Below, piece after piece: positions 1-59,493 of a stretch of 64,000 bases of DNA; within the stretch, counting starts at the first letter, position 1, and every line of letters starts with the position of its first letter. Both the position numbers and the translations under genes were made by a program. The stretch comes from Enoplolaimus lenunculus (taxonomy: Eukaryota): positions 248,001-312,000 of the forward strand of contig JASANG010002430.1 of the NCBI GenBank assembly GCA_030248215.1. Reading direction: 5' to 3'. Below the pieces are notes generated by a model. The model ran no database searches. It saw only the letters and a program-made list of their open reading frames with translations, and had not been told where the DNA came from.

Positions 1-174
1 CGCTGCAAGCATGTACCTAGGCTTTTTTCTTAATTGAAACTGTATCACTGCCTATGTTTATGGGAAAGAACAATAGCTTAAAACATATTTTTTTACCATT
101 TCAAATATAATGTTCTTTTTTTCATTTGTTTAATGAATAGTTTAATGACTTAATTATTTTTTATACAAATGCAG

Positions 175-869
175 TCAACACAGCTTCTCGTATGGAGTCA
201 ACCAGTAAAGCGATGCGCATTCATGCTTCAAAAACTATTGTTTCCTTACTACGGATTCACTATCCGGATGATTTTAAATGCACTAAACGCGGAGTTATTG
301 AAGTCAAAGTATGTATTGCGGTTTTCTTAGTACTAGTCTTCACCGATACCGGGGACGCTTTTCCTTAAGACTTCGCGAAGCAGAAGTGTGTCACACTGCG
401 AAATTCTGTTTTAGTATCTGTAATATAGCGTGTGAATACAAGCTTGTGAATCCAAACCTATTTTAAATCCAGGCGTTTATTTCTGAAAACAGCTACTACA
501 GCCGGTAATTTTGCAGTTTTGTTTAGAAAATTGGTTTTGTTAAGTAAACTTATTTCATGAACTTTAGTAGATACTTGGATTTTCAGATTAATTTCGTTCC
601 AAACTTTAAAATCTAAACATCGAACGTCAGAAAAATGTTTACGTTACGAAGCACTGAAACATCATAATTACGCTGCAAATCATGTCATTTGTTGAAAGGT
701 TTTCCATTTTTAGGGTAAAGGCCAAATGGAAACGTTCTGGATACACGAATCAGATACAAATTACGAATTGGATGCTGTAATACCAGGAATGAATGATGAA
801 TTTCAAGAAGAAGAAGAATTGATCTTACTAGGAACCGAAAAAAAGGACCAAGTCAAAGAAGAAACATAA
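175..869 (+). CDS. 3' end (last two exons) of a guanylyl cyclase gene, tandem paralog of 4212-12121; 5' part lies outside the window
   Basis: Exon 175-308 (ag|..|gt) reads (V)[44 protein letters not shown]. Exon 714-869 reads [51 protein letters not shown]. Both have class III cyclase motifs (NTASRMES, KGKGxMxTFW) and the same lengths (134, 156 nt) and phases as exons 7-8 of the downstream gene. Confidence 0.93.
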
Positions 870-4211: not shown

Positions 4212-7200
4212 ATGAATAACATAAGCACACTATTCTTACTTGTTTACGTTAGCTTAACAGCATTTAACTTTTGTGAGCAAGCTTCAATTGTTGTCAAAGG
4301 CATAGGAGCTTCACTTCCGGCAACGGTATATAGGGAATGGATTGTGCGGTATCAAATCGTAAAAGGCTCGCAGGTCAATCCGGTCAAAATAATGTATATA
4401 AGCTCAAATAGCCTTTTGGGCAAAGAATCAATGAAACGCTCAACAGCTGGAAATCAATCATCGTACGTCTTTGCTGGGACCAATTCCGATTTTAGCGACA
4501 AAGAATACTTGGAGAATCCGCAAATGACGATTTTTCCGGTGATGTCTGGGTAAGAATTTATTTGACGCTGGAGACAATCGCCGAAATACAGATACAAAAA
4601 ATAGACGCTTTGCAGTATTTAGAATTGATTAAATAAATTACTTACGAGAATGGCAATTTTTTCGGTATCACTTAGCAACTTATAATGATTTTAGCAGCGT
4701 CAGCACTTTTTACATTCATTCTCAATCGACAGTTTAATCTAGCAATAGAGAAACATTTTTTGACAGCAAATAATTTAAAACAAATACAAATAGCATTTAA
4801 TTTTCGTGTGTTACTTTAGCAAAAGTAACTTTAGTATAACTGTCGTTGGTAAACTTCAGAAAGACCAATATATCTTGGTTTTACAATACGGGTGCCATAG
4901 TGAGTTTTGAGCTCGCATAACTTTCACTCAGTGTAATGTATCGAGAGTGAAAGGTGTATTCTCGTATTCCTGTCGTAAGATGTAAACAGGTTTCCGTCTG
5001 CAAAATTTAACTCATTTCAATCATACTGGCACAAATTTAAATCTTTTATAAATTTTTGCGTTTCACAACCGTTTTCGGTTCTTATATGCAATTTTCTTAC
5101 TGACTATACCATATACACCGTGGTTCATCGCATATCGTTACGGACCTTTAGTAATTGGAACAGAAATTATGCACCAAAGAAGAAACTGAATGGTGAACGA
5201 AAGGTGACCACTATGCTTGCGTGCCTATTTCAGGTTCAGTGCGTGAAAGTTTCTGAACTGCTGTGCCTACCCACGGCATGTGTCAGTAAACAGGTAGTGC
5301 CAGGTAATCTTAAAATTCAAATTTTCAACCCATAATTTATGAATTAGAAAATTAAGACGGATGCAGTTTATAGCAGCTCGCTCACAAAGGCTTTTCAATT
5401 AGAACATATTGAAATGTATAAGATGTTCATCAACAGCTTTTAGTTGAAATTTATCACACGGTTTAAGCATGTTACTGTAAAATGCATAAGAAGTTGGCTA
5501 TGTTGCAGAAACAAGGAAATCACCTGTTTCACGTTGCCTAACTTTCACTAGAAAATAAAAATAGTACAGATTTGCCATGTCATTCATTAGTTAGGTACAT
5601 TAAAATGCTTATTGAATGCGTTTGACTTACTTCAAAACCGCAACACTTAGTCAATCACCACTTATTTCTCAAGATACGGTTTAGCTCGTTTCTGTAACCT
5701 AGGATTTATCAAAAATCGCATGTTAAATCGTTACCGCCATGAAAACCTAAACACGTCCTCGAAGGCCGAGTTAAATTGCATCTGCCCACAGATCAACTAG
5801 ATAATTATGCAGTAATTTTTAGCGCAATCGTTATCGTATACAACATTGACGGTCTAAACTTAACACTGACCTTGGAACAATGCGTTGGAATATTCAGTCG
5901 AACAATTACCAAATGGAACGATCCAAAACTGCTAAAACTGAACCCAGGCTTAGCTTCTCATGACGCTGAGATTAAGCTAATAGCTCGACAAGATGAGTCC
6001 GACTCTACTCGGATCCTAACTTCAGTCCTAAGCGACGCCAGTGAAATTTGGCGAAACAGCCAAGGGGTGTTTGTAACAGGACAACAAAATATCAAATCCA
6101 AAATAGCAGCCAGAGGGTGGTCTTTAGACGCGATCTATATGTACGGCAAAGGAACTGCTGGAGTCCTTGGATTTGTCAGTTCGATTCCGTATACTATTGG
6201 ATACGCGTCATTTTCCGCCGCTATGACAGTAAATTTGCAAATTGCACAATTATACAATAAAATGAACGTGTTAATTCCGACCGAACGAATATCACAAAGC
6301 GTTAAAAGCGCAACTGATTATTCGATGCGAACCTTTGGCAACAGATTGGTGACCAGTTTGACCAATTCGCCAACTCGTGATGGATACCCAATGTCAACAT
6401 ACACGTATATTGCTGTCAACAAAACAACATCAACAACAATTTCGTGCAAGCAAATGGTCGAATTTTTGCGATTCATCAATTGGGCGTTGACTGATCCCAT
6501 TGCTCGCGAAATCGCTGTTCAGTACTCTACTGTACCACTGGCGACTCCAATGGTTGCAAAAATACAGGAGAATGTGCTGCAAGTAAGTGCCCAAAATTTA
6601 CTCTAGGAATGTCTTATCATGTATACCAAAAAATATATTATTTTAAGAATTTTGGTGTGTGAATTTGAAACTTTATTTTTGAACAGACGTTTTCAGTAGA
6701 AATCAGTTAGATTAGAAATAGAATGTTTTGCAATCTCATGTTTATGATCCTATAAAAATTATTTGACAATTATTAAAGGGTTGTTTCGAAAATATCGCAG
6801 TTTGTTGTTCTATGTCACAAAACCATTTCGTTACAATTATGAACCGCAAGAAATAAACCCAACCTCATGAATCTATATCTAGCGTTTCTAAAGCTCCTAC
6901 AGTTATACCACAATCTTATTTTACCAACGTTTCGTAGAACAAAATATATCAAATACAAGTTTTGCTTCTTTCTATTAAAGGCGTGTCTTTGTTTCACTTG
7001 ACCTGCATATTTCAATATGCAATTAAATTAAGTGTGTATATTAATAATTCCCAATTTCTTATAACTTATAAGATTAACTTTAACCCTGAGCATACAACGT
7101 AAGTCTGTTCAACCGAAGTTTAACGCAGATAGAGTTGAAATATAAAACGAATTAAAGATGAAGCACGTTCATTTTTTACAACTAAAAGTCCAATTTAACC

Positions 7201-10200
7201 ATAAGAGTTTTCAACTCTTTTAAAAGGGGTTTTACAATTTATAAACATGTAATTCAGTAAACTGCTATTCAAGGATGTAAAATGCTGTTGTACATCATAT
7301 GTTCTGTGCCGTGTTGGCCGCTGAAAGAAAATGATGTGCGTTAATTATGTGAAATCTGGATTAAATTATTTTGATTTTAATATAATTCTTTAATTACAGC
7401 GTTTAAAATGTCAAGGAAGAAACTTGTGGGAACTGATGGAAGATGATATTACCGAAGAACTTGGCATAATTCAACGCAAAAAAACACTGGTTATTGTGCA
7501 AACAACTATACTTGTAATTCTGTTTATTAGTACAATCGTAGCTTGCAGTATATTACAGAAATATCGACTAAACAAAGCCGCAAACGCAAAATCGTGGCTA
7601 TGGACTGAAGCGGATTTGAAACTGTTCGTCAAAAGTAGCATGTCTGTCGGCAGCCGAAACACTCTTGAAGTCGAAGCCGATAATTTGCTGCAAAAGATCA
7701 GCAAACGACAAAAATTTGCTACAAACCAAGATCAAACATATGTTTTGTTCGAAGCGACCTTTAAACAGTTACCGGAAAATTTTTCTCTTCGGAGTAACCG
7801 GATGGTGAATGAGTTGATACAAAAAATCAACCATGAAGGCGTAATGCGTCTTGCTGGTATAGTAGTTTTAAGCGCTGGGTTGAAATGTTATTATCTTTTC
7901 GCTGGGCAAGAAGTTAGCTGGTTGCATTTTGTATTTAAAACCTCGCGATACAGAATTAGCGACGAAGTACGGCTTGAAATTATTATCGACGCCGCAGTTG
8001 CCATGGATTTTCTACATGACAAAGGCATCGCACATACAACGCTGAACTCGTTGTCGGTATTTTTAGACTCAAAATGGTCAATTAAAATTGGCGATTGGTG
8101 CAAAAAAGACATCTTTGAAACTGAAGGCGGAAAAGTAAACTGGTGTGGTCAGTTATCGGCCCAAATTAACACATACTTGGATCAAATGGAAAATGAAGAA
8201 TCAGAACAAAAACTAATTCTGCAATATATTGATCCACAAGTATTTGTGTTTGCTAGTGCGGCGGACGGTGCTTCGTGTCAGTCAATGGATTTTTATAGCT
8301 TTGGAATGTTGATGGTTGAAATGTGGACAAAGTTGACACCGCTTCACGAAACGAATACGGGAATTCCCGTCGAAGAAGGCATTAGGTGTGTGTTGTCGGG
8401 ACGTAGTCGGCCTGACGTTCCGGAAACTATTGATCAAAACACGAGAGATTTAATTAAGTCGATGATTCAACCAAACGCGGCAGCGAGACCTTCGTTTAAA
8501 AATACTATAAACACGCTTCGTGAATTTAAAGCTTCAGACAATAGCGATGGAATTGTGAGCACGCTGATGCGGTCGATGGAAGAATATATGGCTAATTTAG
8601 AATTGCGGGTAACGAATTATATATAGAATATAGAAGAGTTGTGTTGGTGGGTGTATTTTGTGGACAGCGCAGTAGACTGGAAACTGATGTAAATAAAGGA
8701 TCAAACTATATTTTGAAACCTTTCACCATTTTCAAAAACTTACATACTTATGCTTTTTCTGGCTTGTCCACCACTACATTGTTGTGATGTTCTTATTGAA
8801 ATGGAAATGTTGAAACACACCAGTTTGCCAGTACATTCTGCATGTATTAATAATAAGCAGTAAAGCGAAAATTAACCGTAAAACTGTGCGCATTATTCTA
8901 GGTTGCCCAGTCATGGAAAACCTTCATAATACTAATTTAGTAATTTAAAAGGTTTCCACTAACATTTTATCGCATGAAAGTCTTCAAATTCATTTGATAA
9001 GCAACTTCAAAGAGGTAGAATTCGATTTCTAGTTTCACCGCAGTTATAGGAACTAGGTAATTTATCACCGGAAGGCTTTTACGTCTTATAGATATTTTCC
9101 ATTGCGCGTATACGTATAAATTAATGTATACTGCTTTTGGGTTGTATGTATATCATTTGCATTTAGTTGTTCATAGTGTGCTTATCAGAAAAAGGTTAAA
9201 GTGGAACGAGGGTCAGAGTAGAATATCATTTTCACGTTCCTTTGTGAAGCATAACGCGGATTTGACACATATTAAAAATGTTACTTCTTCAGAGCAGTTC
9301 ACGCATTTCCAATCCAGCAACGCCGGAATATTTGCTAAGGACATAAGCCTAGCGTTGCTAACTGAGCTACAAGTTTATCACTATTTCACTATAATAAAGA
9401 AATTTAATGATCGGAAAACAATGTATTATCATGTGCTTTTGTATCTCTGTCATAATCCAGTGATTCACATACCTTTCAAATCAGATATCTTCTTTGTTTT
9501 AGATAGAGGAAAGAACTCAAGAGTTGAAAGCGGCAAATAACAAAGTCGAAGATTTGCTACAAGCAATGTTGCCTGGTGAAGTTGCGAAAAAGCTTCTTGC
9601 TGGGGAACAAGTTGAGCCTGAATTTTTCAACGAAGCGAGCATTTATTTTTCGGACATAATTGGTACGTTTATCGTTGTAAAACTATACTAGTCAACGTGG
9701 TTGCAAATTTGAAACTCAAAGACATTCTTCCCAAAATGTTTATTCCTGAAAACTGCACAATACGTTTTGTTTACATTTCGGTTCATTTTCAATTTTTTCC
9801 ACATCCTGGACATTTATTTGCAAAAAATGCGTGGTAGTTTACACATATATGTTCTCTTGTTTATATAATGTGAAAATACAACAGCTGGAACGATGCCCAA
9901 AATACGTATGTGGGTCGTTCCAGCATTAATAATAGATTTCTAACTGGGAGGCAAAATATATGAATTTTGTACACAGTAAAAATAAAACACAAATTCTATC
10001 TCGCTTAACATAAATTCTTCTAAACTAAGTCTAAATTGCACTTATTTTATGTTATTTTAATTATGCAGGGTCCACAATAAGGAGTGACACTGTGGTGGAA
10101 AATTTCCAGTCATTCCGACAAATTAATAAATTTACATTCATTTTAACGCAGTCTGGAATGAAAAAATATTTTTCAAAACAAATCGTAACTCATTTAATTT

Positions 10201-12121
10201 CCCCTTTAATTTATATTGCAGTTTTAAAATTGCAATTAAAAATTTTTAATATTATAAAATCGTGTAAAATTTTAGAATAAAATTTTACGTAGCCTGAATT
10301 GAATTTAATACTTGTTATGTAATTTAAAGTCAGTTTGCAAACTGTTATTACGTTACTGCAATGCATTCCTGGCTACGCGAACAAATACGATTCAGTTACC
10401 CGGAATTGAATATTGTTTAAAAGTTTATTTTCAAACTGAATTCCGTTTTCTAACCACTGTGTCACTCCTTATTGTGGACCCTGCATTACATACATTTACG
10501 CAGTAGTATATCAAGTGGGACCACTGGAAGCAAACCAACACGTTGTTCGTTGTCAACATTATTGCGTAGACGGTCATCTAGGCATTGGTCTACACATAAA
10601 AGCCGGTTACTGTAAAAGTTTCTTGTAAAATTTCAGGATTTTCAAAAGTAGCCACAGAGTCGTCACCGTTACAAATTGTCAATCTTTTGAATAAAGTATA
10701 CATTCTGTTTGACGAATGCATCGAAAAATTTGACGTGTACAAAGTCGAAACCATTGGTAATGTTATTTTGCATTTTTGGGTTTTTAGAGCCGCCACTAGA
10801 AATTGTTTTAGCTCTGCTCAAAGTTAACAACAACAACTTAAAAATTTATAAAACCGTTTTTACTATTTATACTTTGCCATTTTCAGGAGACGCGTATATG
10901 TGTGTCTCCGGTGTTCCAAAACGCAATGAACAACGACACATTTGTGAAATAGCAAAAATGGCAATTTCAATCGTCAAATCCATGAAAGGGTTCATGTTGC
11001 CACATAATCCTTCGAAGAGCGTTGAAATCCGCGTCGGAATCAATTCAGGCCCTGTAATGGCCGGAGTTGTAGGTGTAACCATGCCGCGATATTGTTTATT
11101 TGGCGATGCAGGTATACGCTCAGAACTACTTGGCTGTCTAAAAAAGTAAACACGGGCCTGCAATGAAACCAAAACTTAAACACAATTTTTGTCACCACCC
11201 ACACAAGGTAGATGTCTATCAGGTCTAAGCTCTCCAGGCGCCTATCCTTTAAACTACATTGACTGTATGAAGGCTAGTAGATTAAGACATAACTATAATC
11301 CACAGTGCGAATTTCAAAAATATCCTTAATCCATTCAAATGTTTCAACCAGAATTACTGTTATGAATCACTGTAGCCGAATAGCATGTGATTATTAGTTT
11401 TTCAGTGAATACTGCTTCACGAATGGAGTCAACAAGCAAAGCGATGAGAATACATGCTTCAAAAACAATTGTGTCGCTGCTAAGAATTCATTATCCTGAC
11501 GATTTTAAATATACAAAACGAGGTGTAATTGAAGTAAAGGTAAAATATAATAACATTTTTACCAAAACCGTTTCACACTCATTCGAGCTAAAATACAACT
11601 TGAACATTTATATTGATATTAAAACAGCGTTTTAATGAACGTTGAAAAGTGTTGGCACAATGCGGTTTGCTGAAATTGTAGCCTGTTTTCGGGCTTGTAC
11701 TTCCATGAGAAATCGATCCTTAAAGGTGTGGTCGTAAATTTCTGTAATTCTTAAAACTATAGTATATACAGAAAAAATGGTCAGAACAAATTGCTGGATC
11801 ATGTAATCGATGAAATATGTTATGCGCCGTTCCGTAAAACTGTTTGTAACGTTGACAATACGTGCATATAAGCTGCTGACAAGCATCAAACAATGTGAAG
11901 TCTACATATCACATATGCACATAATGAACAAGGATACAGGTACGGTAAGCGCTTATGTATTACAGGGTAAAGGTCAAATGGAAACGTTTTGGATCCACGA
12001 ACACGATACCAATTTCGAATTGGACCCAGTCATTCCGGGCATGAATGACGATTTTCAAGAAGAAGAAGAACTCATTCTGCTTGAGCAAGACAAGAAAGAA
12101 ACCGTCAAAGAAGATAAGTAA
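4212..12121 (+). CDS. Single-pass receptor guanylyl cyclase, 1033 aa: signal peptide, PstS-like phosphate-binding-protein ectodomain, TM helix, kinase-homology domain, signalling helix, guanylyl cyclase domain
   Basis: Exons 4212-4549, 5823-6582, 7400-8608, 9503-9662, 10637-10756, 10887-11111, 11406-11539, 11966-12121 join into 3102 nt with no internal stop. Hydrophobic signal peptide [24 protein letters not shown]. PstS motifs [75 protein letters not shown] about 7487-7555. Pseudokinase motif [22 protein letters not shown]. Helix [16 protein letters not shown]. Intact GC motifs [35 protein letters not shown]. Confidence 0.95.
10064..10485. mobile_element. MITE (422 bp) in intron 4 of the guanylyl cyclase gene, TTA flanks (PIF/Harbinger-like, or decayed Tc1/mariner-like)
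   Basis: 33-bp terminal inverted repeats TGCAGGGTCCACAATAAGGAGTGACAC(T/A)GTGGT with one mismatch; TTA on both sides (10061-10063, 10486-10488); AT-rich non-coding interior. Confidence 0.85.
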
Positions 12122-13184: not shown

Positions 13185-13358
13185 TGTACCCGGCACGCGT
13201 TGCGTTTTTGGCCTACCCCCTTTGTTTAGAGGGGGTACAACCTATGCGTATCCGGCAACAAATTGCTGCGCTTATAATTTAATTTAAAGTTATTGCATGT
13301 GACAGCGACCCCTCTAAACAAAGGAGGGCCGGCCAAAAACGCAACGCCCTTTGGTACA
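13185..13358. mobile_element. Short foldback MITE-like element
   Basis: Imperfect arms of about 50 bp: TGTACC..GCGTTGCGTTTTTGGCC..CCTTTGTTTAGAGGGG pairs with CCCCTCTAAACAAAGG..GGCCAAAAACGCAACGC..GGTACA. Confidence 0.7.
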
Positions 13359-26200: not shown

Positions 26201-29200
26201 CGGCAACAATTCTTAAAAACGTCGCATGAACAAATTGGCAATCATTTTTTGGCTCCGTAAATCTAAACTACAATCAATTATTGAAAAGTTAACACATCGA
26301 AAAGAAATAGACAAATGATAAAGAATTTTTATACAACGTATCACAACAAGTAGGGCTAAAATTAAAATGCGGAAATTTCGATACCGATTGATTGTGCAAT
26401 CGGAATCGGAACTCGTTTTGAATCGAAATTCTAATCGAAATCAGAATTTCGATTGCACATTGGTAGCCACTAATTCAAGACGATTCCAAGTGCTAAACTA
26501 ACTACACAGATAGGCCATAATTTCGTTTACCCTAGCACTTATGACTCTCTCCAGTACTGCACACATTTTATATGTATTGTTGTAAAGTGTAAGCTTCGAC
26601 CTTACATAATGGTGTAAATTTTACATTTTCACCACACGAGACCGTACTAAGAAGATAATGATCTCAACAGATGCCCGATCTAATAATGTTGATTATAGCT
26701 GTTTTATAGAAAAAATGCATACGCCTTAGATTGAACATAATCGCAGTAAACGACTTATGTATCTACATAGGGCGTTTTATGATGTGGCGTATTTTAGTCT
26801 GAGAAATGGCCCCCATGTACATAAGGCCAAAGTTTCTACAGCAGGTTCGATGTATTTGAAAAAGCCCGCTGTTACACATGTGCGAATATTTTACCCTATT
26901 TGTCATATTTAAAAAACTGTTCCTTGTGGGTTTCTTTTTGTGACTTCTTAGCCGACCAAGTTAGTGCAGTGTACGCCGGCTAACTGCTAAAGGTCAGCTG
27001 TTGCGCTAATTTGCATATAGTTCAGCATTCTATATACCGTGTAACTATAACATAATCGCGTTTTTATAATCGCGTGCTATAATGTCCGTATTACAAAAGG
27101 GGGAATAGGTTGAGTAAAGATATAAGGCTACGTCTGATGGCTTTGTATTGCAACAATGACACATGATGAAGTTCGACAGGCGAATCTGAAGCCTGCCAAA
27201 CCGTTGCCACCGTGGGTCGAATTCTTTGGCACGAGCAATGTTTATAATGCAAACTTGACGGCTCTTCGTAAATTGTATTGCCTTGAACGTCAAAAATTGA
27301 TTGCATCAAAAGGTATATGAGAAACAGGGAAAATAATTGTACACAATTAGCATTATCAATGGGTATTACGAAAATCTATACGACACTTATGCGCCTTATC
27401 GAGTCTTTATCACTGGTTAACCTATATAGTTCAGTCCACGTGTATAGTTCAGAAATCAGTAAATGTTATCATTGATCGTCGTTAAAAGCCCGTATACAAG
27501 TCACAGTTTTTATACGTATGTTTCAGCACCTTGTTTGCGAGCTGCACTGGAGGCGACCATGTTGTACTGCATTACCAAAGAAATTTAGCCGAATGTTATT
27601 TCAACACTTAAATCAGTTTTGAAACCCACCGCCGAACCACACCTATCGTCAGACACTGCCATAGTGCCTACAACCGCCGATCAACAGCAACCGTCAGACA
27701 CTGCGACACTGCCTACAACCGCCGATTAACAGCAACCGTCAGACACTGCGACACTGCCTGCAACCGCCGATCAACAGCAACCGTCAGACACTGCGACACT
27801 GCCTACAACTGCCGATCAACACCAATCGTCATACACTGCGACACTGCATACAACCGCCGGTCAACACCAATCGTCCGACAATGCTGTAGTATCCACAACA
27901 GCCTAGGCAACTTTACCGCGAACAGCATATCCTCATAAACTTTTGCTTACAATTTCGGTACCTCGAAAACCCTTCGCGCTACCATCAGCATCGACGACAT
28001 GAGCGAGCGATCATTCGTGTCAGACCCGGACCCGGATTATAACAGCTGACGAGTCGTTTAATTCAATTGAGAGCGAGCGGAAATAAAGACTTGACAAGTC
28101 GGAATTGGATTTTAAATTGCACACTTATTCATACTTTATTATTTTTAGCGAATCGAAAGCGTGTGGTTGGAGACATGCATAGCGAAATTGTTGCTTTTTC
28201 CGTTCTGCTAGCAATTGTTTTCCGTAGATCCCCACAGGACGGGGCAGGTTTTGTTATCTCAGGCTCAGAGTGGTTTCATTCGCTACCGAGCGACCCTGAG
28301 TCTGAATTTGTTATCATTGTCAGGACAGGGGAGGGTTCCTTTTCTTTTCTTTTTGGATCCAGTGCTTTTCGGCCGACCAGTGCACATAAAAATTGCTTCA
28401 GCCGTAGAAATGGACGGTGCGGGTCCGGTCCCCCGTTTTCTTTTTCAATTTTTGACCAATTCCCCACTTTACCAAATTAATCTATCTTTGACAATTTTGA
28501 TGTTCGGTGGCGATAGTTTTGTGTTTGAGGCAAATCTGCGAGCCTAGGATGAGAAACCCATCCCGGACATAGATGAGCGGAGTATTAGGGTAACCAACCA
28601 TATACGAACAGAGATCTTCTATTATGTGCAATGGCCAGAACAACAACAATTTGTAAGTAATAATATTGATGTTATAAATGTTTCCCGTCGAACTGTCGAC
28701 CCCAAGCCAACCAGCAGCCATATGCAAATATTTTAACGGCTACGTTAGATATCGGTGAGAAATTTATCCGAAACTGTTTGAAAACGCGAAACGCAACCGG
28801 TGTTCCACATTATACCAAGGTATGCTCTCCTATAAGACACGCATTGACTCAACATCAAATTCAAGCAGTACAGGAGCATATTGACAGCTTCCGTCGTGTG
28901 CCAAGCCATTATTGCAGAAAGACCTGAAAACGTGGTTTACAAATAGAAAAAATATCGATGCGACACGTGTGTAACAGGGTGCAACCGGAATTCCGGTTCA
29001 GGCATCTTTTGACCTTCCGGTTTCGGTACATTTTTGCCAGAATTTAAAATTTCGGTATTAAAATTTGGTCGGTTGAGAAACAAACTTGGCTCTACCCAAA
29101 CACCCGTCAAAAACTAACCAGCTTCACCGTCGCTCCAATGGCATTCACGCAGCAAGTTCATCGCAACACTAGCTCCATGAAGATCAATCACATACGCTAC

Positions 29201-32200
29201 GTTAAGAATACGCTGAAGACTTTTTGCATCGCCAGCCTGGTCAGGATCAAATTCAACTGCGCTTACTTGAGCCGCCAATTTCTCAGCCAAACGTTCCAAC
29301 ATAGCTTTCATCCAAGCACCACCACTCGACTCATTATCGTAGCCACCTTTTGAGCACGAGATTCCTGTGTGACCCTCGGCCATTTCGTGCCCAGCAGAAC
29401 ATAACTGAGAATTTCTTTGACACAAACTCAAAATGAAGTCCAGGCCCAAAACATTGCACATACTATCATCACTGGGACCGCCACCATTCCCTAAAGCTCG
29501 TTCAAACATCTGTTCAACCAAGGTATTCGTCCAACCAGTTCGTAAACAGCTATACAAATACCGTTTTAAATGTTCAAATTCCGCTCCATCACAACCATTA
29601 TCAACTGCTCCAGTCAAAATTCCACAAAAATAAACACAACTAATTAGAAAATCTAGTTGTTTTTCAAATCCCTGGCCTTGCTCTTCTGTCAAGCCTCCGT
29701 ATATTCCATTAAGGCTGTTGGTCTCCGCATCTGCGTCAAGTAAGCCTTCAATACTTGTCATCATAAGCATAAGTCCAACCCTGGACTGACCCTTCGTGTC
29801 CAACCTACTACGTCCGCTATCCTCGAGCGCCGCTAAAAGCAACTCATAATCGACAACAGGATACTTTCTAGCTCTAATGAATTTCCCCAAACCGCACCCA
29901 AAACAATTCTTGTCGTCCAAGAAATCTTTCATCAACTCCCACCATTCCTGCTTTGAAGGTAAATACGCTTCTACAAAATATGACCACAACTTTCCACTTT
30001 TGACAGCGGGAGTTTCTTCCGATTTAACTTCATTTGTAAAATCAGACAAAATTGTTCGAATTTGAGCAAAAATTTCAGTCATCTGTCGCGATATTTGTGG
30101 ACTTGGCGCAACCTCCGAATTCAAAGCTTGTAGCATCGCCCGTTTGCATGCATCTCCAATTTCACTAACCAAGCCAACACAAACGTCGTCGTTGTTAACT
30201 AATGTTTTGCAAAATACGTTCACCAGCATAGACCCCCTTGCATTCCTAGCTCGGTCTCTCACGCGGTCCCATTGTTGCTCACCACGTTTACCAGCTGACA
30301 AAATGCTAATTTCACAAAGTGCCACAGCGACACGGCTTAAAATTTTCAAATCTGCACCACAATCGTGAGCCGACAAAACCGGTTCCCACGGCTTATAAGA
30401 AATTTCCGCAACGCCTACAAACAAATACACCAAATCTACGCGCAGATTGTAATCAGCCGCTATGATATTAGCATCTCTTCCCAGACTCCTTAACACGCTA
30501 CTAACCAAATCTCTCCAGAAATCACGAGCCTTTGTTGAACTTTTAGGAGTTGGCAGGGACAGCAAGGCATTAACTGATTCCAAAAATAGATCTGCTTCAA
30601 CTGTACGCCTCCAGTTGTTATTCGATCTATCTACCCGATCCGAATTTAAAATCACCTTCAAAATTTCATTCCCAACCCGATGACAAAACTCTTCCACTCG
30701 TTCGCTTTCATAGCAGTTCTCGACGGTAAATGCCCTCAACACGGCAAACTTACCCTCCAAATCTTCGCTCCGTTGAGTCGCGATAAGACTTTCCAACTCC
30801 TCCAAACTAGCCTTGACATCGTTCTCCCCCGATCTACAGTGTCCTTGCTCCTCATCCTGCGTCGCATTTGATCCTCGCGACATTTTAATTGAAAACCACA
30901 ACCTCACAAAAGCTTCCAATACCCTAAGCATAGCTCTGTACTCAGTTTCACATTTCGGGTTAACCGACAGAAAACCTGGCCCATCAGCTTTATCAATCCG
31001 CTGCTGCAATGCAACCCTACACAAGCTCTCACAAACATTTTTCTTTTCCTGACCAATAACCTCTCCCAAAATTTCCGGGAAGTCTGTTACAAGCCCAGTC
31101 AAAATCCTGAAACACGTCAGTTTTTTCTCACCAAAATCCGTCCAGTTTATGTTTTTATTCCCCATAGGAACTAAAGTTGCCTCCACACATTTTGTCGCTA
31201 CAACATCCACCAATGGTTCCACTTTAGACCGAGTCCCAAAACTACTCAAAATGTCAGGGTCCAAATCACCAGACCTGCCTCGCGTATAAAGATTTGAAGC
31301 ATCCCGTTTTGCTGCTCCTAAAGATCTGATAAAATCTTCAACTAAATTTCGACTGGAAACGTTTGTGCGTTCAAGTTCGGCGGAGCAAATTTCACCTATT
31401 CGAGTTATAAGGTCAGGATACTGAACAGCGTATTTTGTTTGATTCGAAAGCGATAAAATTAGCGATGCCAACGGTTGAAATAACGCACTGCTATTGGATT
31501 GTGTTTGCACAAGTAACGTGGATAAAATTGAACAAATCTAAAACCAAGAACACTTTATTTATTTATTTAAACCATCCCGGAGTTGTATCTCTTAACTTAC
31601 ATTAAAAATTAAACTTTTAATTAAAAATATTTAATTTATTCCAACAGATATTTTAATACGTGGTGCAAGTTCACATGTATGCGTGCGAAACCGTGTGCAT
31701 CTGAAGATAGGTTAACCGTAAACTGCGATTTCAATTATAATTCTTTTCACTCTTCTACGACCGCGCTGTGCGGTTCACTGTTTGCCTACATCAGATTCTA
31801 TGGAGAGGAAATCCCGATTTCCGTCCAGAAGAAGCGCGATGAAATGATCTGCGCATCAAAGAAGAAACGGATGACGAAATAAGAACTCGATGACTGATTA
31901 TACGTACGATGATACGCCGGCAATGTTGTATATATGTGTATAATTATTGTAGTTTATTACTCTGTAGACAAGAAACAGAGAAACTATTGTGCTGTTTTAT
32001 GCGGCGTAGCAAGCCCAATTGTTGCGATATGAATTTTTCTTATATCTACCGTTGGAAAATTAATTTTTTACTATATCTCGAAAGAGTATAATTTCATATA
32101 CCATTTTTTGATTCTCACACCTACCAATTTATATATACTCAGAAATAAACAAAAATAAACGCCACAAAACTTACATTTTCGACTATATCCCATCTGTTAC

Positions 32201-40699: not shown

Positions 40700-41236
40700 T
40701 AGCGGGGAAATTAAAATTTTGGCGGGAAATTCTAATTTTGGCGGCAAAATTCGAATTTTGGCAGTAAATTCAAACTTAGGCGGGAAAATTCAAATTTTGG
40801 CGGAAATTCAAATTTTGGTGGGAAAATTCAAATTTTGGCGGGAAATTCAAATTTTAGCGGGAAAATTCAAATTTTAGCGCGAAATTCGAAATTTGACGGC
40901 AAATTCAAATTTAGGCGGGAAAATTCAAATTACAGCGGCAAATTCGAATTTTGGCGGAAAAATTCAAATTTCGGCGGGGAAAATCAATTTTTGGTGGTAA
41001 ATTCAAATTTTGGCGGGAAAATTAAAATTTTAGCGCAAAATTCAAATTTTGGCAGCAAAATTCAAACTTTGGCGGCAAAATTCAAATTTTGGCGGAAAAT
41101 TTAAATTTTGGCGGCAAAATTCAGATTTTGGCGGGAAATTCAAATTTTGGCGGGAAATTCAAATTTTGGCGGGAAAATTCAAATTTTGGTGGGAAAATTC
41201 AAATTTTGGCGCGAAATTCAAATTTTGACGGGAAAT
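40700..41236. repeat. About 20-21-bp minisatellite (GGCGGGAAAATTCAAATTTT)n, roughly 26 diverged copies
   Basis: Tandem GGCGG(G/C)AAA(A)TTCAAATTTT units read directly; unit length varies. Confidence 0.93.
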
Positions 41237-43770: not shown

Positions 43771-44705
43771 ACAAATTGTGCTGGTTACTTTGCTACGTTC
43801 AAAAATTGTGCCGGTTACTTTGCTACGTTCCAAAATAGTGCCGGTTACTTTGCCACGTTCAAAAATTGTGCCGGTTACTTTGCTACGTTCAGAAATTGTG
43901 CCGGTTACTTTGCTACGTTCAAAGATTGTGCCGGTTACTTTGCTACGTTCAAAAATTGTGCCGGTTACTTTGCTACGTTCAAAAATTGCGCCGGTTACTT
44001 TGCTACGTTCAAAAATTGTGCCGGTTACTTTGCTACGTTCAAAAATTGTGCCGGTTACTTTGCTACGTTCAAAAATTGCGCCGGTTACTTTGCTACGTTC
44101 AAAGATTGTGCCGGTTACTTTGCTACGTTCAAAAATTGTGCCGGTTACTTTGCTACGTTCAAAAATTGCCCTACGTTCAAAAATTGCGCCGGTTACTTTG
44201 CTACGTTCAAAGATTGTGCCGGTTACTTTGCTACGTTCAAAAATTGTGCCGGTTACTTTGCTACGTTCAAAAATTGTGCCGGTTACTTTGCTACGTTCAA
44301 AGATTGTGCCGGTTACTTTGCTACGTTCAAAAATTGTGCCGGTTACTTTGCTACGTTCAAAGATTGTGCCGGTTACTTTGCTACGTTCCAAAATAGTGCC
44401 GGTTACTTTGCCACGTTCAAAAATTGTGCCGGTTACTTTGCTACGTTCCAAAATAGTGCCGGTTACTTTGCCACGTTCAAAAATTGTGCCGGTTACTTTG
44501 CTACGTTCAGAAATTGTGCCGGTTACTTTGCTACGTTCAAAGATTGTGCCGGTTACTTTGCTACGTTCAAAAATTGCGCCGGTTACTTTGCTACGTTCAA
44601 AGATTGTGCCGGTTACTTTGCTACGTTCAAAAATTGTGCCGGTTACTACTTTGCTACGTTCAAAGATTGTGCCGGTTACTTTGCTACGTTCAAAAATTAT
44701 GCCGT
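43771..44705. repeat. Homogeneous 30-bp satellite (AAAAATTGTGCCGGTTACTTTGCTACGTTC)n, about 31 copies
   Basis: 13 units at 43771-44160, one 18-bp unit, then 17 more units (one with a 3-bp insertion near 44646); no unique spacers. Confidence 0.97.
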
Positions 44706-44851
44706 TTATAGCTTTGAATATACTTGTATTTTGCAGTTACTAGCAACGCATGCTGTTTTTCCACAATAATGTATTATCGCGTCAGGCGTAAATTAGACAA
44801 TTGCGTAACGAACTTTTACCGTTGGTACCTAATCATTTAAAGCTGTACTTA

Positions 44852-45385
44852 GGGTTGTGCTATACTTGACGTCGGGCGCCGTCCATCACCCGTAGGACGC
44901 CGTCCATCACCCGTCCGACGCCGTCCATCACCCGTCCGACGCCGTCCATCACCCGTCCGACGCCGTCCATCACCCGTCCGACGCCGTCCGTTACCCGTCC
45001 GACGCCATTCATCCCCGTCCGTCATCCGAACGGCGCCGTCCGTCATCCGAACGGCGCCGTCCGTCATCCGAACGGCGCCGTCCGTCATCCGAACGGCGCC
45101 GTCCGTCATCCGAACGGCGCCGTCCGTCATCCGAGCGGCGCCGTCCGTCATCCGAACGTCGCCGTCCGTCATCCGAACGGCGCCGTCCGTCATCCGAACG
45201 GCGCTGTCCGTCACCCGCACGGCGCCGTTCGTCGCTGTCCATCACTATATGTTATCGTACGTGAGTTATTTGCGTACGATACCGCACGGTTACGGACGGC
45301 GCGCCGTACGTGAAAAGACGTCGCCGGACGGTACCGTGCGGGTGACAGACGGCGTCGCACGTTAATGAAAGTACAGCGCAGCCCC
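44852..45385. mobile_element. PIF/Harbinger-like MITE containing two internal GC-rich 21-bp minisatellites
   Basis: TTA on both flanks (44849-44851, 45386-45388). Left end GGGTTGTGCTATACTT resembles the reverse complement of the right end, GGGGCTGCGCTGTACTT. Arrays (CCCGTCCGACGCCGTCCATCA)x~6 at about 44877-45010 and (CCGTCCGTCATCCGAACGGCG)x~10 at about 45015-45230. Confidence 0.7.
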
Positions 45386-53600: not shown

Positions 53601-53999
53601 CTCCCACACCGATACATCTTTAACACTTTAACAACGACCCTATTATACTATTCTATGTTTATTTTGAAAATTTTATTGTTTTTGGGTGATGACCAAAAGT
53701 TGGCCGAAACTTAGACTTTTTATGGCCGCTCTGCGCTATTCCTGGCTAACATTAAAATGCTATTATTTTTTGCTTAGGTTGAGACTTAGTTAAAGACCAA
53801 TTTTTACGTTCAATTTTAGGCTTAGCCATAGGAATAATAGAAATATGCCGAGATATATTTTGCTAGGCCCATAGAATAAAACTCGTCATCTATATCTGGC
53901 TTTCCAGCGTTATTGTACCTAACGCAATAAAGATTTTAAACGTAAACGACAGCGTGCAAACATTTAAATTACACGTGTGACAGAAAAAAAATTGTAACA

Positions 54000-54338
54000 T
54001 TGGATATTTATGAATTTAAATGTCCTGGCTGTGAGTCGGGTTACATTGGCGCTGCGAATCGCCAATTGTACAAAAGGATATGTGAACATCTGCAGATTTC
54101 GAATCGGACCGAATTACCAACACATTCTTCTTTGAACTTGATTTCCGCTATTTGTTCACATCGTTCTGAATTTGATCATCCATGCTCCAAAATTGACTTT
54201 TCAATATTAGACCAGTGGCCAAACTCTAAAAGTTATTCAAATTTAGGTTTGCATATACTGGAATCATGTTATATCCGTAGAAAGCAACCAGAACTTAATA
54301 TACACTCTAATGTATTTTCTTTTAAAAATTTCACTTAA
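54000..54338 (+). mobile_element. GIY-YIG endonuclease fragment of a Penelope-like retroelement
   Basis: IYEFKCPGCESGYIGAANRQLYKRICEH..SAICSH..FSILD..LHILESCYIRRKQPELN fits the PLE endonuclease pattern (VYxxxCxxC..YIGxTxR.L..RxxEH..SA..H..ExxxI....PxLN); no intact RT upstream. Confidence 0.85.
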
Positions 54339-54564: not shown

Positions 54565-57500
54565 ATGTTGACCCGAGTAGCTGCATCGGATGCGATGTCA
54601 AAACGTGAAAAGCGGCGACAGGAACGTAAAAATCTTAAAGGTACTTACGCAAGTTATTGTGAAAAAATGCATTTGGTGTCGTTTTTGAACATAATAAATT
54701 TACACATCGACCAGTTTGCGATAAATATTAGGGTAGAAATCTATTGCTAAGTGTCGGATATCCCGATATGAAAAACATCCTGGACGTGTATTTGAATCGA
54801 ATGTATATATGTCACAGGCCAATCTGCTATTCCCACCAATTACTAAGTGGCATAAGCCAATCTGCGTTTTTTGTATTAATGGCACTTTGGCTGTGGCCAA
54901 ACTGCCATTAAACTTATTAACCAATCGGATTTGACTATTGGGCCAGACGTAATACAAAATTTGGTGGATCAAATTCAGTTTGATGACAAGCTATGTTCAG
55001 AGAGCGGAAATGTGTTACGGAGATTTTCTACAGCTTTTTAGATTTTGAATTTTTTTATAATTTCAGAGCTTGCCCTTCGAAACCGGCAGTATTACGCTCG
55101 TCTACGCCAATATTACGCAGATTCACCGAAATTTCGTGCATTTTTACTGTACAGCGCGTTTTGTTGTTATATTTTTGGAGGCGCGGCGATATTTTATGCG
55201 ATTGATCATAACGCGGCGCAACCTTTTGATTTGGATCCGCGTATGAATGGATTGGACATTACGTGTATTGGCCGTCATGATTTTTTCAGTTCTGTGTTGT
55301 ATGCACTTACGGCGATGTCAACCATTGGTAAGTTTTATCAAGATTATGGATACACTATGGTTAAGATTCTGCAACTGGGTACATTCTGTGCACAAAAGAA
55401 CGTACCCCAAACAAGTCGTTTTTTTGGACAACCACCAACCTCTTATTTAGGCAGGTTACGTTGCACAAATATTTTGAATTTTGACAAATTCCCTACGATT
55501 ATTTTCTTAACACCAATATTTACTATTCGGTTTTAAGAGATGATTCGCAAATCCACTCTTGTCTTTATCAAGAGTCAATAACGACTTTTTTAGACTAGAG
55601 TGTGCACTTTTAAAAAATATGCACGAAACTTAATGTACCTGCGCTTCTTGCTTCTTTCTTATGCCCCCTCATTTCGTGGAGGTCTAGGTTATATATACGC
55701 CACGCAAAACGGAAGACGAAATGATATCTGGTCAAAAACATTAGCGAACCATTTTTACCATGCATTTCATTATCATCTCTTCGAATTTCGAGGTTCCAAC
55801 CAAACCCCTGTGTGAACCACATCGAAAGACCACATCGAAAGAGTCCCAGCACGAAGAATCCCAATAAATCATTCAGGATCCCCCGGTGACTGTTGAATTG
55901 GATCAAATATACAGCGATGTTTTATAAACCGTATTTCACGTTTTAAACGGCATGTTTCAAAACGTTTTTTATACGCGGAGAAAAGATAATGCAAATGTCT
56001 TTTGGCCTGATCGGGAATTAATAGTACGCAAGGCGAGTGGGGGGTCGTACAGACAGGGGGGGCGGTGGATCGCGCCCCCACACCCAATCAGAATAGTTCG
56101 TGTGTCATAATTTACATTAGATACAAGAATTACGCCTACTTGCTCGCTCGATTCTCGCGGATTAATTAAAGCTCACTCTAAATCTTCTCTACAAGCCTTG
56201 ATTTTCTGTACTTAAGTTAATGGTAATGCGGTATTAGTTTTCGCGCGCTTCACCCGCGATATTATTTTCAAGTCGTGTTCACGTGGCGAACAACTGGGTC
56301 TGGTCCAGCTACCAAGCCCGCCTAAAATTTAGGGAGGGACTCTGAAATTGGTCTCGGAGCCGACTAACAAAGCGTGACCAACCTCATATATCCCGCCAAA
56401 ATGTCCATTTTTATGCGAAAACCTAAGGCACGGACCTAGCAGAATTCAGGTCTCCCCCAATGCAATTTTCTCGGTACGCCACTGACGCCACCACATCTAC
56501 AAACCGGGGTTGTTTCCCCGCAAACATTGGATGGACCGAAAAAGCAGGTTGTTTTAAAGATTGAAAGACATGTACTCGTAAACAAATGCACTGAGTGAAT
56601 GGACGCTAACTGTAGGCCCACAAAGACACTAAAAACATCATCATTTTACTAAAAGTATCATTTTTCAACACATGATAAGCGTATGGTGCATCCCACAAAA
56701 GTGTCAGAGCTGGTCACAGGAGAAGATCAATAATTGAGGATGGGGAGCGCGTGCTCACCATCACAAATTGTTTATGATAAATATGGTAAGGTCTGTGACC
56801 TACAAATTTTTATTTATGTGCTGGTAAAATGACGTTCGACTATTCGCGTGCGAATATACATTGCATCCACCACTGAACTTTTTTCAACAGCTTTAAAAAA
56901 TACAACACATTTCTTTCTCCCATCTGATAGTCTTTTCTCTGATTGCTTTGGCTGCTGGTCTGCTTTTGTCGTTTGTCTAAAGTCAAAACGCTATTGGCAC
57001 TAAAATAAATGTTTTTTTCAATACGCTGTTAGTGAACGATTCGAAAGTAAACGTTCAATCTTAATTAGCTTTTACCATATTCTTTCAGCATTCGGTCAAC
57101 TCCACGTTTGTACTACAGCGAGTCGCGTGCTCACCTTGATTTATTCAGCGGTCGGTATTCCGTTCATTGTGTACATTTTAGCAGATTTAGGCGGTCGAAT
57201 ATGCTACATTCTGGTAAACAGTTATGCGTATTGTATTAAAGTTGCGACATTGATTTCAAATTGGATCCGGCCTCGATGGCACGATTTTCGGCTCGAACTA
57301 AGCGAGCGGTTTCAACGGCCAAAATTTTCTTCATCTCAATTGAAAACTTTTTCAGTAGAATCGCTAATGTATATTGATGATTCAGATGTTACGACGCTTG
57401 ATTTGTCGCAAACTATTTTACTCAACGATAAACACCATCCCTTTTGGACTTTAGACCAGTCAACAATTGACGAGTCGCGCAACAAAACTGATATCCCAAG

Positions 57501-59493
57501 GTCACTATGCGGTAAAAACGTGGCGCTCAAGCTGCGAAAACGATGGTTTCACCGGTTTGACCCCAGAAGACTATTCGAATGGGGACGGGGTCGATTTTTA
57601 AATTCGGATAGCATCCAGCATAATCGGTTCGAAAATGGACCTGCTGTAATCGGGATACGAGATAGTGTAATAGGGTGTCGTGAGGAACCCAGGAGGTCTA
57701 GTGGGGTACGGTATAGCCAAGGAAGCTTGTCTGTCGGAAGCTCTACACGTGAACTTAGCTTGTTAGATGTTCAAAGTCTAGCGCTTGATGAAGAAACTGG
57801 GCCGTTACCTCCGTTTTTCTGTTCAGATTCTAAGCAAGCCGAGAGCCAAACTTACCAACAGCACCCTATAACCAAAGCTCCCGTGATAAACATTGTAAAC
57901 GTGGACGAAACGGAATATTTACAACTCAAACCGATGGCTTCTGACGATTATACCGAAAATCAACTAAGTAAACTAGCTAATAATGACATAGCTACTTTTG
58001 ACGCTCTTGAAAATCGCCGATTTGAAAAATCGGATGGTGGGATGAAGTTTTTGGCGGTTCCAGGGCTAGATTTAGCAAGTGGCGTCCCTCGGGACTTGGC
58101 TGGGTCAACAGAAAATTTGTCAGTATGTAGCAGCCGGCGTAGCAGTGTCGCAAGCAGCCTCGGGGACGGCAACGCAGTAGATTTTAACGAATTCACCCCT
58201 GATCTTCCTCTTTCGTTATGTTTTGCGTTACTCGTTTTGATTACAGCAGTGATTGCAATACATATACATGAATTTGAATACGTACCAGCCGGGTATTCGT
58301 TGTACTACGCTGCGCTATTTTTCATTATGCAAGAATACTACGTTAGAGATCATCAGAATTGCTTAGTAACGTTCAGTATTCTAATATCGGGTCTGGCTGT
58401 AATTTCAACGCTGATAAACGCCGTGATCTACAATATTCAAAATACATCCGCTCGGATACAAGCTAAGCTGCCGGAAGCTATCCGAAAACGGAAAGAAGAA
58501 CTAGCGGCGGCTGGATTTCCGGATGCGGATGTGAACCCGGATGAAATTCTGAACGAACTACTCGCAGCTGAAGGAAGCTTTTTGACTCGTCAAGCGATGC
58601 CACGTTCAACTATAGATCAATTGGAAACCGCTTGTGAATCCACGGTCACAAAAGTGGAACAGCAAATTGTTGACGAAGTCAAACGAAAAAATCCGCCGAA
58701 AAGCAAAGGAACACAAACCAAAGGACTATTTGAAGAAAAGCGTCAAGGTGTACAGGTGGCGGTTCAAGTGGGACACCAAACCGAAAGCCGACAAGCTGAA
58801 ATTCAAGCTACTTGCCAAGCTGAACATTCCAGTACTACGTGTGAAGGTTTAATCGAATTCAAAATTGCCGAAACAAATACAGACACCGTGGCGCCTCAAA
58901 AAGATGCTCAAACACAACTGGATTCGCTCAAAACATTTCTAGACGCCGCGTCTCAGTACGTATCTGAATGTATCAATGCGGCTATTGAAACTGACCCACC
59001 ACCAGCGCTAGCTCACGCAATTGCTCAAACGCTGCTGGTTGAATTCGCGACAGTTGGCACAGACGTTCTTCCAATAAAAATGCAGCATTCAGAAACAAAC
59101 ACAAAAATTGTTCAATTAACGGATAGCAGTTGTGAAATCGCTCCAATCACGGCGTCCGCCGGATGTACAGCTATACCGGAAACAACAAATCAAATTAGCT
59201 CAACAGACACAGTTGAACTTCAAGACATGGGCTCTGAGCCAATCAAAATAGAGCATCGTGATGTGGAAACAAGCATTAGACCGGAAACGAAAGATTTCGC
59301 TGCGGACATATCACCTGAAATGGAATGTAAAACAGCAGAAGTGACGGAAATGGATATCCGGTTGACCATGGGACCAAAAGCTATCAAAGCAACACCAGCT
59401 GCAGCTACGAAAGCCTACGCCAGGCAGGATATTGGCCGGGTTCAAGGCTCGCGATTGACGTCTGCGACATTGTCAAAATTTGAGAAAAAATAG
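54565..59493 (+). CDS. Two-pore-domain (K2P/TWK-like) channel homolog, 3 exons, 913 aa, with degenerate selectivity filters
   Basis: Exons 54565-54640, 55067-55327, 57089-59493 (2742 nt; both introns phase 1). M1 LLYSAFCCYIFGGAAIFYAID; P1 DFFSSVLYALTAMSTIAFGQLHVCT; M2 SRVLTLIYSAVGIPFIVYILADLG; long M2-M3 loop; M3 LPLSLCFALLVLITAVIAI; P2-like SLYYAALFFIMQEY; M4 LVTFSILISGLAVISTLINAV; long C-terminal tail. Confidence 0.85.
56040..56484 (-). mobile_element. Inverted, internally deleted copy of the 49902-50699 hAT-type element, in K2P intron 2
   Basis: Ends TCTCGGTACGCCACTG; the segments CTGAAATTGGTCTC.GAGCC.ACTA and ATAATTTACATTAGATACAA.AATTACG are reverse complements of about 50040-50070 and 50607-50640. 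Confidence 0.8.

What the first reader, a model, noticed from the sequence alone, without database searches (positions are those of the whole stretch)
4212..12121. Receptor guanylyl cyclase with a bacterial-type PstS (phosphate-binding protein) ectodomain: candidate extracellular anion/phosphate-to-cGMP receptor
Seen: exons 1-2 align motif by motif with PstS of bacterial Pst ABC transporters (E. coli motifs from memory): [14 protein letters not shown] ~ GAGATFPAPVYAKW; FPVMSGAIVIVYN ~ [35 protein letters not shown] ~ [31 protein letters not shown] ~ RRADGSGTS; GKGTAGV..YTIGY ~ [21 protein letters not shown] ~ WPITSTTFI. This domain is spliced in frame to a TM helix, a pseudokinase, a signalling helix and a cyclase with both metal-binding Asp, the GTP-specifying Glu and Cys, and the catalytic Asn/Arg. 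Established: characterised animal receptor GCs (natriuretic peptide receptors, C. elegans GCYs) use an ANF-receptor type I periplasmic-binding fold, whereas PstS is a type II fold. Inference: a solute-binding ectodomain was recruited to make a small-molecule sensor coupled to cGMP. I know of no functional characterisation of this architecture, but similar uncharacterised fusions may already be in databases; I cannot check that.
Basis: partly seen in the sequence, partly recalled or inferred. Interest (0 to 1): 0.92.

Follow-up and report, generated by a model that had tools for sequence, protein, structure and literature searches.

The report
Worm receptor with retuned phosphate trap
This animal gene encodes a cell-surface receptor whose outer part has the fold of the bacterial phosphate-catching protein and whose inner part is predicted to make the messenger cGMP; most relatives keep the phosphate pocket, but this copy has an altered pocket and likely senses a different small molecule.

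Summary
Observation confirmed. Eight GT-AG exons (4212-12121) give a stop-free 1033-aa chain: PstS-fold ectodomain, one membrane helix, pseudokinase, signalling helix, and a guanylyl cyclase with all six key residues. It is not a one-off. Thirty-five of 150 best hits share the architecture; named relatives come from molluscs, annelids, nemerteans, a priapulid, a tardigrade and the nematode Romanomermis, often filed as 'ANP receptor-like'. My paper searches found no description; this scan noted the family earlier in an octopus.

The phosphate reading fits the family better than this gene. The core phosphate loop is kept in 88 of 93 other animal members but in 1 of 15 in the window's subclade, where 11 of 15 carry an acidic residue. 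The window has Asp56-to-Asn and Gly140-to-Asp (E. coli numbering). The animal domains group with protist and fungal receptor domains, not inside bacterial-type PstS, and share an old intron, so recent bacterial transfer is unsupported.

Best reading (0.5): a small-solute chemoreceptor with retuned specificity, probably from a nematode. Phosphate sensing by this copy: about 0.27. No RNA, binding or activity data.

The parts
4212..4549 (+). Exon 1: likely signal peptide (aa ~1-24, inferred) and N-terminal third of the PstS domain; S34, S67 and N91 match E. coli Thr10, Ser38 and Asp56
4482..4484 (+). Codon Asn91, in place of the phosphate-discriminating Asp56
   Evidence: Asp in 28 of 34 other animal rows that have a residue in this column
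4550..5822 (+). Intron 1, phase 2; the same position is inferred in 27 relatives
5823..6582 (+). Exon 2: rest of the PstS / PBP_like_2 domain
5986..6006 (+). Pocket loop R168-S174 (E. coli Arg135-Thr141); Asp173 at 6001-6003 replaces Gly140
6445..6447 (+). Cys321; likely disulphide partner of Cys370 (7409-7411). Both cysteines are invariant in the other animal members and rare in single-domain PstS
   Evidence: the disulphide is inferred
7400..8608 (+). Exon 3: juxtamembrane stalk, membrane helix (about 7481-7564), kinase-homology domain lacking the catalytic Asp (about 7709-8536), start of the signalling helix
9503..9662 (+). Exon 4: end of the signalling helix (HNOBA) and start of the cyclase with metal-binding D820
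10637..10756 (+). Exon 5: cyclase, with GTP-specifying E860
10887..11111 (+). Exon 6: cyclase, with D864 and C932; best solved match is GC-A (E 1.8e-23)
11406..11539 (+). Exon 7: cyclase, with catalytic N939 and R943
11966..12121 (+). Exon 8: end of the cyclase, acidic tail and stop codon
159..866 (+). Last two exons of a tandem paralogue, cut by the window start; its ectodomain is not visible
   Evidence: over 80 codons pS 0.78, pN 0.043

Best explanation
The gene encodes a single-pass receptor guanylyl cyclase with a PstS-fold ectodomain whose pocket differs from the phosphate-binding consensus, and it likely works as a chemoreceptor for a small solute other than ordinary phosphate, probably in a nematode. 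Shown: the domain order, the full set of cyclase residues, the pocket changes, and purifying selection between its cyclase and that of a tandem paralogue. Inferred from known receptor cyclases: it dimerises through the signalling helix, and ligand closes the two lobes. The stalk, likely pinned by a Cys321-Cys370 disulphide, would turn the membrane helices, release pseudokinase inhibition and close the cyclase dimer to make cGMP. Inferred from the subclade pattern: a nematode-like branch retuned an ancestral phosphate site by placing acidic residues in it, which would disfavour phosphate as E. coli binds it and favour a more protonated anion, a cation or a small polar organic molecule.
For: Architecture and catalytic residues. 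Fold; a full-length relative (Owenia) folds as whole PstS (TM 0.86 of the target) plus a GC-A-type intracellular part. Pocket: R-x-x-x-[SA]-G-[TS] kept in 88 of 93 other animal members, 14 of 15 single-domain PstS and 1 of 15 in the window's subclade. An acidic residue stands at the Ser139/Gly140/Thr141 columns in 11 of 15, 0 of 93 and 1 of 15 respectively, while Arg135 and Asp137 stay at 0.93. The subclade is recovered from the ectodomain (98/83) and independently from the kinase domain (window plus all 8 subclade members with that domain, 0.996). The nearest named relative is Romanomermis culicivorax (99/81). Tandem paralogue: pN 0.043 against pS 0.78. Precedent: C. elegans receptor cyclases sense salts, alkaline pH and CO2, with rotation-based activation (PMC5225109, passages), and salt specificity lies in the ectodomain (PMC12208668, passages).
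Against: No ligand, expression or activity data. The window keeps S34, S67, R168, S172 and S174, and E. coli Asp56Asn was solved with monobasic phosphate bound (entry title 1ixi), so phosphate binding is not excluded. The subclade evolves faster overall: 11 of 58 non-pocket conserved columns also fall below 0.62 retention, so relaxed selection could mimic retuning. The 15 rows are related and are not independent events, 13 of them are unnamed, and two have a one-residue insertion that blurs the loop alignment. Long branches may help to join the subclade.
Confidence: 0.5

Rival explanations
1. This copy is itself a phosphate (or close oxyanion) receptor. Asn91 and Asp173 shift it to monobasic phosphate or lower its affinity into a useful sensing range, with the carboxylate moved from one side of the pocket to the other.
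For: Five of seven pocket positions are kept or conservatively changed. Asp56Asn E. coli PstS binds monobasic phosphate (1ixi title). Gly140 contacts phosphate through its backbone (PMC6549937, passage). 18 of 20 named full animal ectodomains keep all seven positions. A Thr141Asp variant that selects monobasic phosphate is recalled, not checked here.
Against: Gly140 is kept in 91 of 92 other animal rows with a residue there and in 14 of 15 PstS. The glycine-rich loop around Ser38 is also replaced by Asn, Leu, Leu. The loop varies from member to member across the subclade, which does not suggest one shared ligand.
Confidence: 0.27
2. The ectodomain no longer binds a ligand. The protein is the catalytic partner or co-receptor of other receptors, such as family members with dead cyclases, or it relays GPCR or temperature signals.
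For: Of 45 complete cyclase domains, 34 have lost catalytic residues and 11, including the window, are intact. ODR-1/DAF-11 form an obligate heterodimer, and the ODR-1 ectodomain is dispensable (PMC5225109, passages).
Against: The ectodomain keeps its fold and core residues. The dead cyclases that carry names are from molluscs, a nemertean and a tardigrade; no other subclade member has a complete cyclase to judge (3 are partial).
Confidence: 0.18
3. The fusion is a prediction artefact, a pseudogene, or bacterial contamination next to an ordinary cyclase gene.
For: No transcript evidence. Read-through of exon 2 meets a stop 8 codons into intron 2, so a short secreted form is conceivable.
Against: The PstS part is split by a GT-AG intron, and its GC3 (0.43) is close to that of the other domains and neighbouring genes (0.37-0.40). 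Junctions are gap-free against relatives. In 16 of 27 relatives whose chain starts with intron-like sequence, PstS, membrane helix and kinase lie in one uninterrupted chain, 10 of them with cyclase too.
Confidence: 0.03

Closest known systems
Animal receptor guanylyl cyclases (GC-A/NPR1, GC-C; C. elegans GCY proteins)
   Same: One membrane helix, pseudokinase, signalling helix and class III cyclase in the same order; exon 6 matches GC-A best; a relative's model matches the GC-A intracellular domain first.
   Different: The ectodomain is PBP_like_2/PstS, with no ANF_receptor hit. That known receptor cyclases mostly use ANF-type ectodomains is recalled. Most family members have lost cyclase residues.
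PstS of the bacterial Pst ABC transporter (E. coli 1ixh; TIGR00975)
   Same: Same fold (Z 25.2). Relatives keep all phosphate contacts, and the Haliotis protein passes the TIGR00975 cut-off (210.9 against 205).
   Different: Fused to a membrane cyclase, intron-containing, with an added cysteine pair. This copy has Asp56-to-Asn and Gly140-to-Asp. No transporter genes were seen among the long ORFs of the window.
Protist and fungal receptors with PBP_like_2 ectodomains (class C-like 7TM; Andalucia PstS-cyclase)
   Same: PstS fold used as a receptor ectodomain (PMC3251606 and PMC4815078, passages). These are the nearest non-animal domains in the trees.
   Different: They have 7TM, bare cyclase or active kinase outputs, not the animal pseudokinase-plus-cyclase chassis.
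Pseudomonas CtpL chemoreceptor activated by phosphate-loaded PstS
   Same: PstS acts as the sensing element of a membrane receptor (PMC8050422, passage).
   Different: There PstS is a separate protein and the output is chemotaxis signalling, not cGMP.

Membership tests
Animal receptor guanylyl cyclase | Single membrane helix between ectodomain and intracellular part | tested here: met
   aa 394-421
Animal receptor guanylyl cyclase | Kinase-homology domain without the catalytic Asp | tested here: met
   His-Thr-Thr at the HRD position, Asp-Trp-Cys at the DFG position
Animal receptor guanylyl cyclase | Signalling helix between kinase and cyclase | tested here: met
   HNOBA E 0.0011 on exon 4 alone, below the gathering score; helix 781-821 in the relative's model
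Animal receptor guanylyl cyclase | Cyclase with two metal Asp, GTP-specifying Glu and Cys, catalytic Asn and Arg | tested here: met
   residue roles from established knowledge
Animal receptor guanylyl cyclase | Makes cGMP as a dimer, regulated from outside | not testable with these tools
   needs an assay
ANF-receptor-type cyclases (natriuretic peptide receptors, GCY type) | ANF_receptor (PF01094) ectodomain | tested here: not met
   no hit for exons 1-2 at E<=0.1; none in 9 of 9 named full or near-full relatives scanned (P0011-P0034 set)
PstS phosphate-binding proteins | PBP_like_2 sequence family and type II two-lobed fold | tested here: met
   (exon 2 only was folded for the window)
PstS phosphate-binding proteins | Phosphate contacts Thr10, Ser38, Asp56, Arg135, Ser139, Gly140, Thr141 | tested here: not met
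   window has S, S, N, R, S, D, S; residue list from PMC6549937; placing Ser38 and Asp56 on the alignment uses recalled E. coli motifs
PstS phosphate-binding proteins | TIGR00975 curated cut-off (205 bits) | tested here: inconclusive
   exons scanned apart: 12 and 113 bits; the joined domain could not be submitted; relatives score 137-211
PstS phosphate-binding proteins | Free or lipid-anchored subunit of a Pst ABC transporter | tested here: not met
   fused to a cyclase receptor
PstS-ectodomain receptor cyclases of protostomes (undescribed in my searches) | PstS + cysteine pair + membrane helix + pseudokinase + cyclase; phase-2 intron in the PstS domain | tested here: met
PstS-ectodomain receptor cyclases of protostomes (undescribed in my searches) | Single origin of the animal ectodomains | tested here: inconclusive
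   FastTree 0.98; IQ-TREE places one unnamed row inside, and the animals form one side in 1% of bootstrap trees; the AU test does not reject one clade, p 0.49

The most novel reading that the evidence does not exclude
Protostomes have an unrecognised family of receptor guanylyl cyclases built on a PstS ectodomain. Its canonical members in molluscs, annelids, nemerteans and priapulids are direct extracellular phosphate receptors, with active and dead-cyclase subunits pairing. A nematode branch, represented by this gene, retuned the same pocket into a varied chemoreceptor repertoire separate from the known GCY expansion.
Probability: 0.4. Interest if true: 0.88.

Novelty: new variant of a known kind. 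Interest (0 to 1): 0.66.

Why it matters
How animals sense outside phosphate is generally held to be unsettled (my own knowledge; one search gave no useful review). The family offers concrete, expressible candidates: members such as the Owenia protein keep both a complete phosphate site and a complete cyclase, so a phosphate titration with a cGMP reporter is a direct test. The window's subclade adds a natural series of pocket variants on one scaffold, which shows how a high-specificity anion site may be turned into new chemoreceptors. Many database entries named 'ANP receptor-like' or 'retinal guanylyl cyclase-like' are misleading about their ectodomain. This particular gene is a poorer phosphate candidate than its relatives.

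Tried and rejected
Word-index search with exon 2 among longer proteins: none of 2167 candidates scored; this was a sensitivity limit, as one search showed. Profile search with alignment A1: 1 hit of 7991, a PstS-kinase. No whole genome is held, so copy number was not counted. Sequencing runs: no RNA holder listed, which is no evidence either way. Atlas search of exon 2: only PBP_like_2 clusters, mostly bacterial; the Atlas search with a full-length relative did not complete. Ectodomain homodimer prediction for the Owenia relative: no verdict, score 0.27 against a mark of 0.42, not used as evidence. ANF-type ectodomain: rejected. Contamination or recent bacterial transfer: rejected. A tree against ANF-type receptor cyclases was not built, as none were stored. 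Paper searches for the architecture: searches gave 0 papers; one search gave 2, both off topic; one search gave 9, one search gave 88 (25 listed) and one search gave 3,415 (40 listed, none with PBP_like_2 or PF12849); no listed title or abstract start describes it. Unlisted papers, subscription journals and supplements were not seen; genome-paper supplements with domain tables could hold the architecture. Earlier scan notes by place and by sequence: none.
Full report
Observation. Eight exons from 4212 to 12121, all with GT-AG introns, give a 1033-aa protein without internal stops and with one strong hydrophobic helix at aa 394-421. The N-terminus did not reach the hydropathy threshold, so the signal peptide is inferred from its alignment to PstS precursors and relatives. 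Exon 2 is PBP_like_2/PstS by Pfam, NCBIfam and solved structures. Its model (pLDDT 91) matches PstS at Z 25.2, against 8.2 for the best non-phosphate binder. No ANF_receptor hit was seen. Exon 3 holds a kinase-like domain without the catalytic Asp. Exons 4-8 hold the signalling helix and a cyclase closest to GC-A, with D820, E860, D864, C932, N939 and R943.

Is the fusion real? No RNA was available. Against a profile of 19 named animal relatives, the model aligns without gaps over both ectodomain junctions (327 bits). Among 27 relatives whose predicted chains begin with intron-like sequence, 16 carry PstS, membrane helix and kinase in one uninterrupted chain, 10 with cyclase as well, so the fusion does not depend on my splice calls. 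GC3 of the PstS part (0.43) is close to the rest of the gene and its neighbours (0.37-0.40). A tandem paralogue ends at the window start; over 80 cyclase and tail codons pS is 0.78 and pN 0.043.

The family. The exhaustive search with exon 2 gave 2741 hits at E<=0.001. Of the best 150, 35 also match the window's kinase and cyclase, and 26 the kinase only. I looked up 30 of them, and a search with a Haliotis ectodomain gave 36 proteins. Named animal members come from gastropods, bivalves, a chiton, Owenia, Helobdella, two nemerteans, Priapulus, the tardigrade Paramacrobiotus and the nematode Romanomermis. Their database names include 'atrial natriuretic peptide receptor-like' and 'retinal guanylyl cyclase-like'. 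No arthropod, deuterostome or cnidarian appeared among the named hits; the search was too shallow to call them absent. A full-length model of the Owenia protein matches the GC-A intracellular domain and whole PstS, TM 0.86 of the target.

Origin. In 27 relatives the chain has Arg or Ser where complete proteins have Gly, the pattern expected from reading through a phase-2 acceptor at the window's intron 1 position. The gene is therefore likely as old as protostomes. In IQ-TREE (66 of 167 domain rows, exon-2 region only) the 16 single-domain PstS rows form one side at 98/91, and no animal row lies among them. These rows are unnamed and presumed prokaryotic; 8 of them were scanned and all pass the TIGR00975 cut-off. 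The nearest non-animal domains belong to receptors of protists and fungi. Such ectodomains on 7TM receptors are mentioned in print (PMC3251606, PMC4815078; passages). One animal clade is found by FastTree (0.98), not by IQ-TREE, which lets one unnamed row in, and is not rejected by the AU test (p 0.49). The simplest reading, inferred, is that a eukaryotic PstS-type ectodomain was placed on the animal receptor-cyclase chassis. The tree is unrooted, so the direction is not shown.

The pocket. E. coli PstS contacts phosphate through Thr10, Phe11, Ser38, Asp56, Arg135, Ser139, Gly140 and Thr141 (PMC6549937, one passage). Of 20 named animal ectodomains that cover seven of these positions, 18 keep all seven; the window has S, S, N, R, S, D, S. 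The window falls in a 15-member subclade (98/83; 0.996 on the kinase domain alone for the window and 8 members), next to Romanomermis (99/81), so the source is probably a nematode. The R-x-x-x-[SA]-G-[TS] loop is kept in 88 of 93 other animal rows (one of 94 lacks the region), 14 of 15 single-domain PstS, and 1 of 15 subclade rows. An acidic residue occupies the loop in 11 of 15 subclade rows and 0 of 93 others. Against over-reading: the subclade is faster evolving, with 11 of 58 other conserved columns below 0.62 retention, although their median is 0.92 against 0.33 for Gly140 and Thr141. The rows are also related, and E. coli Asp56Asn was solved with monobasic phosphate.

The cyclase. Of 55 cyclase rows, 11 are intact (the window and 10 relatives, among them Owenia, Priapulus and Lineus), 34 are altered and 10 partial. 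The family thus mixes likely active and likely dead enzymes, and this gene is on the active side.

Mechanism. By analogy with known receptor cyclases (PMC5225109, PMC1592074; passages), the protein would be a preformed dimer held by the signalling helix. Ligand would close the two lobes, the cysteine-pinned stalk would rotate the membrane helices, and the pseudokinase would release the cyclase. C. elegans receptor cyclases sense salts, pH and CO2, with specificity in the ectodomain. I put retuned small-solute sensing at 0.5, phosphate sensing by this copy at 0.27, a ligand-free partner role at 0.18 and artefact at 0.03. All steps after the anatomy are inferred.

Novelty. Ten paper searches were run; seven aimed at the architecture and none listed a description. 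I read passages only, of ten papers, and no supplements. What this window adds is an intact cyclase, a likely nematode member and the remodelled-pocket subclade. Verdict: a real new variant of receptor guanylyl cyclases, widespread and misnamed in databases; a strong phosphate-receptor candidate as a family and a weaker one as this gene. Interest 0.66.

Noticed in passing
window 159-311 and 714-866 (+): Last two exons of a tandem paralogue of the cyclase gene, under purifying selection.
   Followed up: partly
window 10063-10486 and 13197-13347: A 34-nt inverted repeat pair 356 nt apart inside intron 4 (97%), and a 40-nt pair downstream of the gene; MITE-like.
   Followed up: no
window 29114-31537 (-): 807-codon open frame with no Pfam hit at E<=0.1 and no solved-structure hit at E<=1.
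   Followed up: partly
window 55042-55536 and 57004-59493 (+): Exons that look like a two-pore potassium channel with a long cytoplasmic region (weak Ion_trans_2 hit, E 0.029).
   Followed up: no
window 60650-62464 (-): Single-exon GPCR, Pfam 7TM_GPCR_Srw E 2.8e-20, with a Gln-rich tail.
   Followed up: no
window 40702-41236, 43773-44708, 44870-45233, 27628-27884: Tandem arrays of 20/39, 30, 21 and 45 nt; they explain several long spurious open frames.
   Followed up: no
window 53946-54338 (+): Open frame that looks by eye like a GIY-YIG endonuclease fragment of a retroelement; label recalled, not tested.
   Followed up: no
proteins P0001, P0089, P0103, P0108, P0109, P0121, P0138, P0157: PstS ectodomains on other outputs in protists and unnamed records: 7tm_3 receptors, a bare cyclase (Andalucia), a two-kinase receptor, a four-PstS multi-pass protein (Chromosphaera), and PstS together with ANF_receptor (Rigifila).
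   Followed up: partly
proteins P0038, P0074, P0036, P0155: Asp replaces the GTP-specifying Glu in two subclade cyclases and in the tardigrade protein.
   Followed up: no
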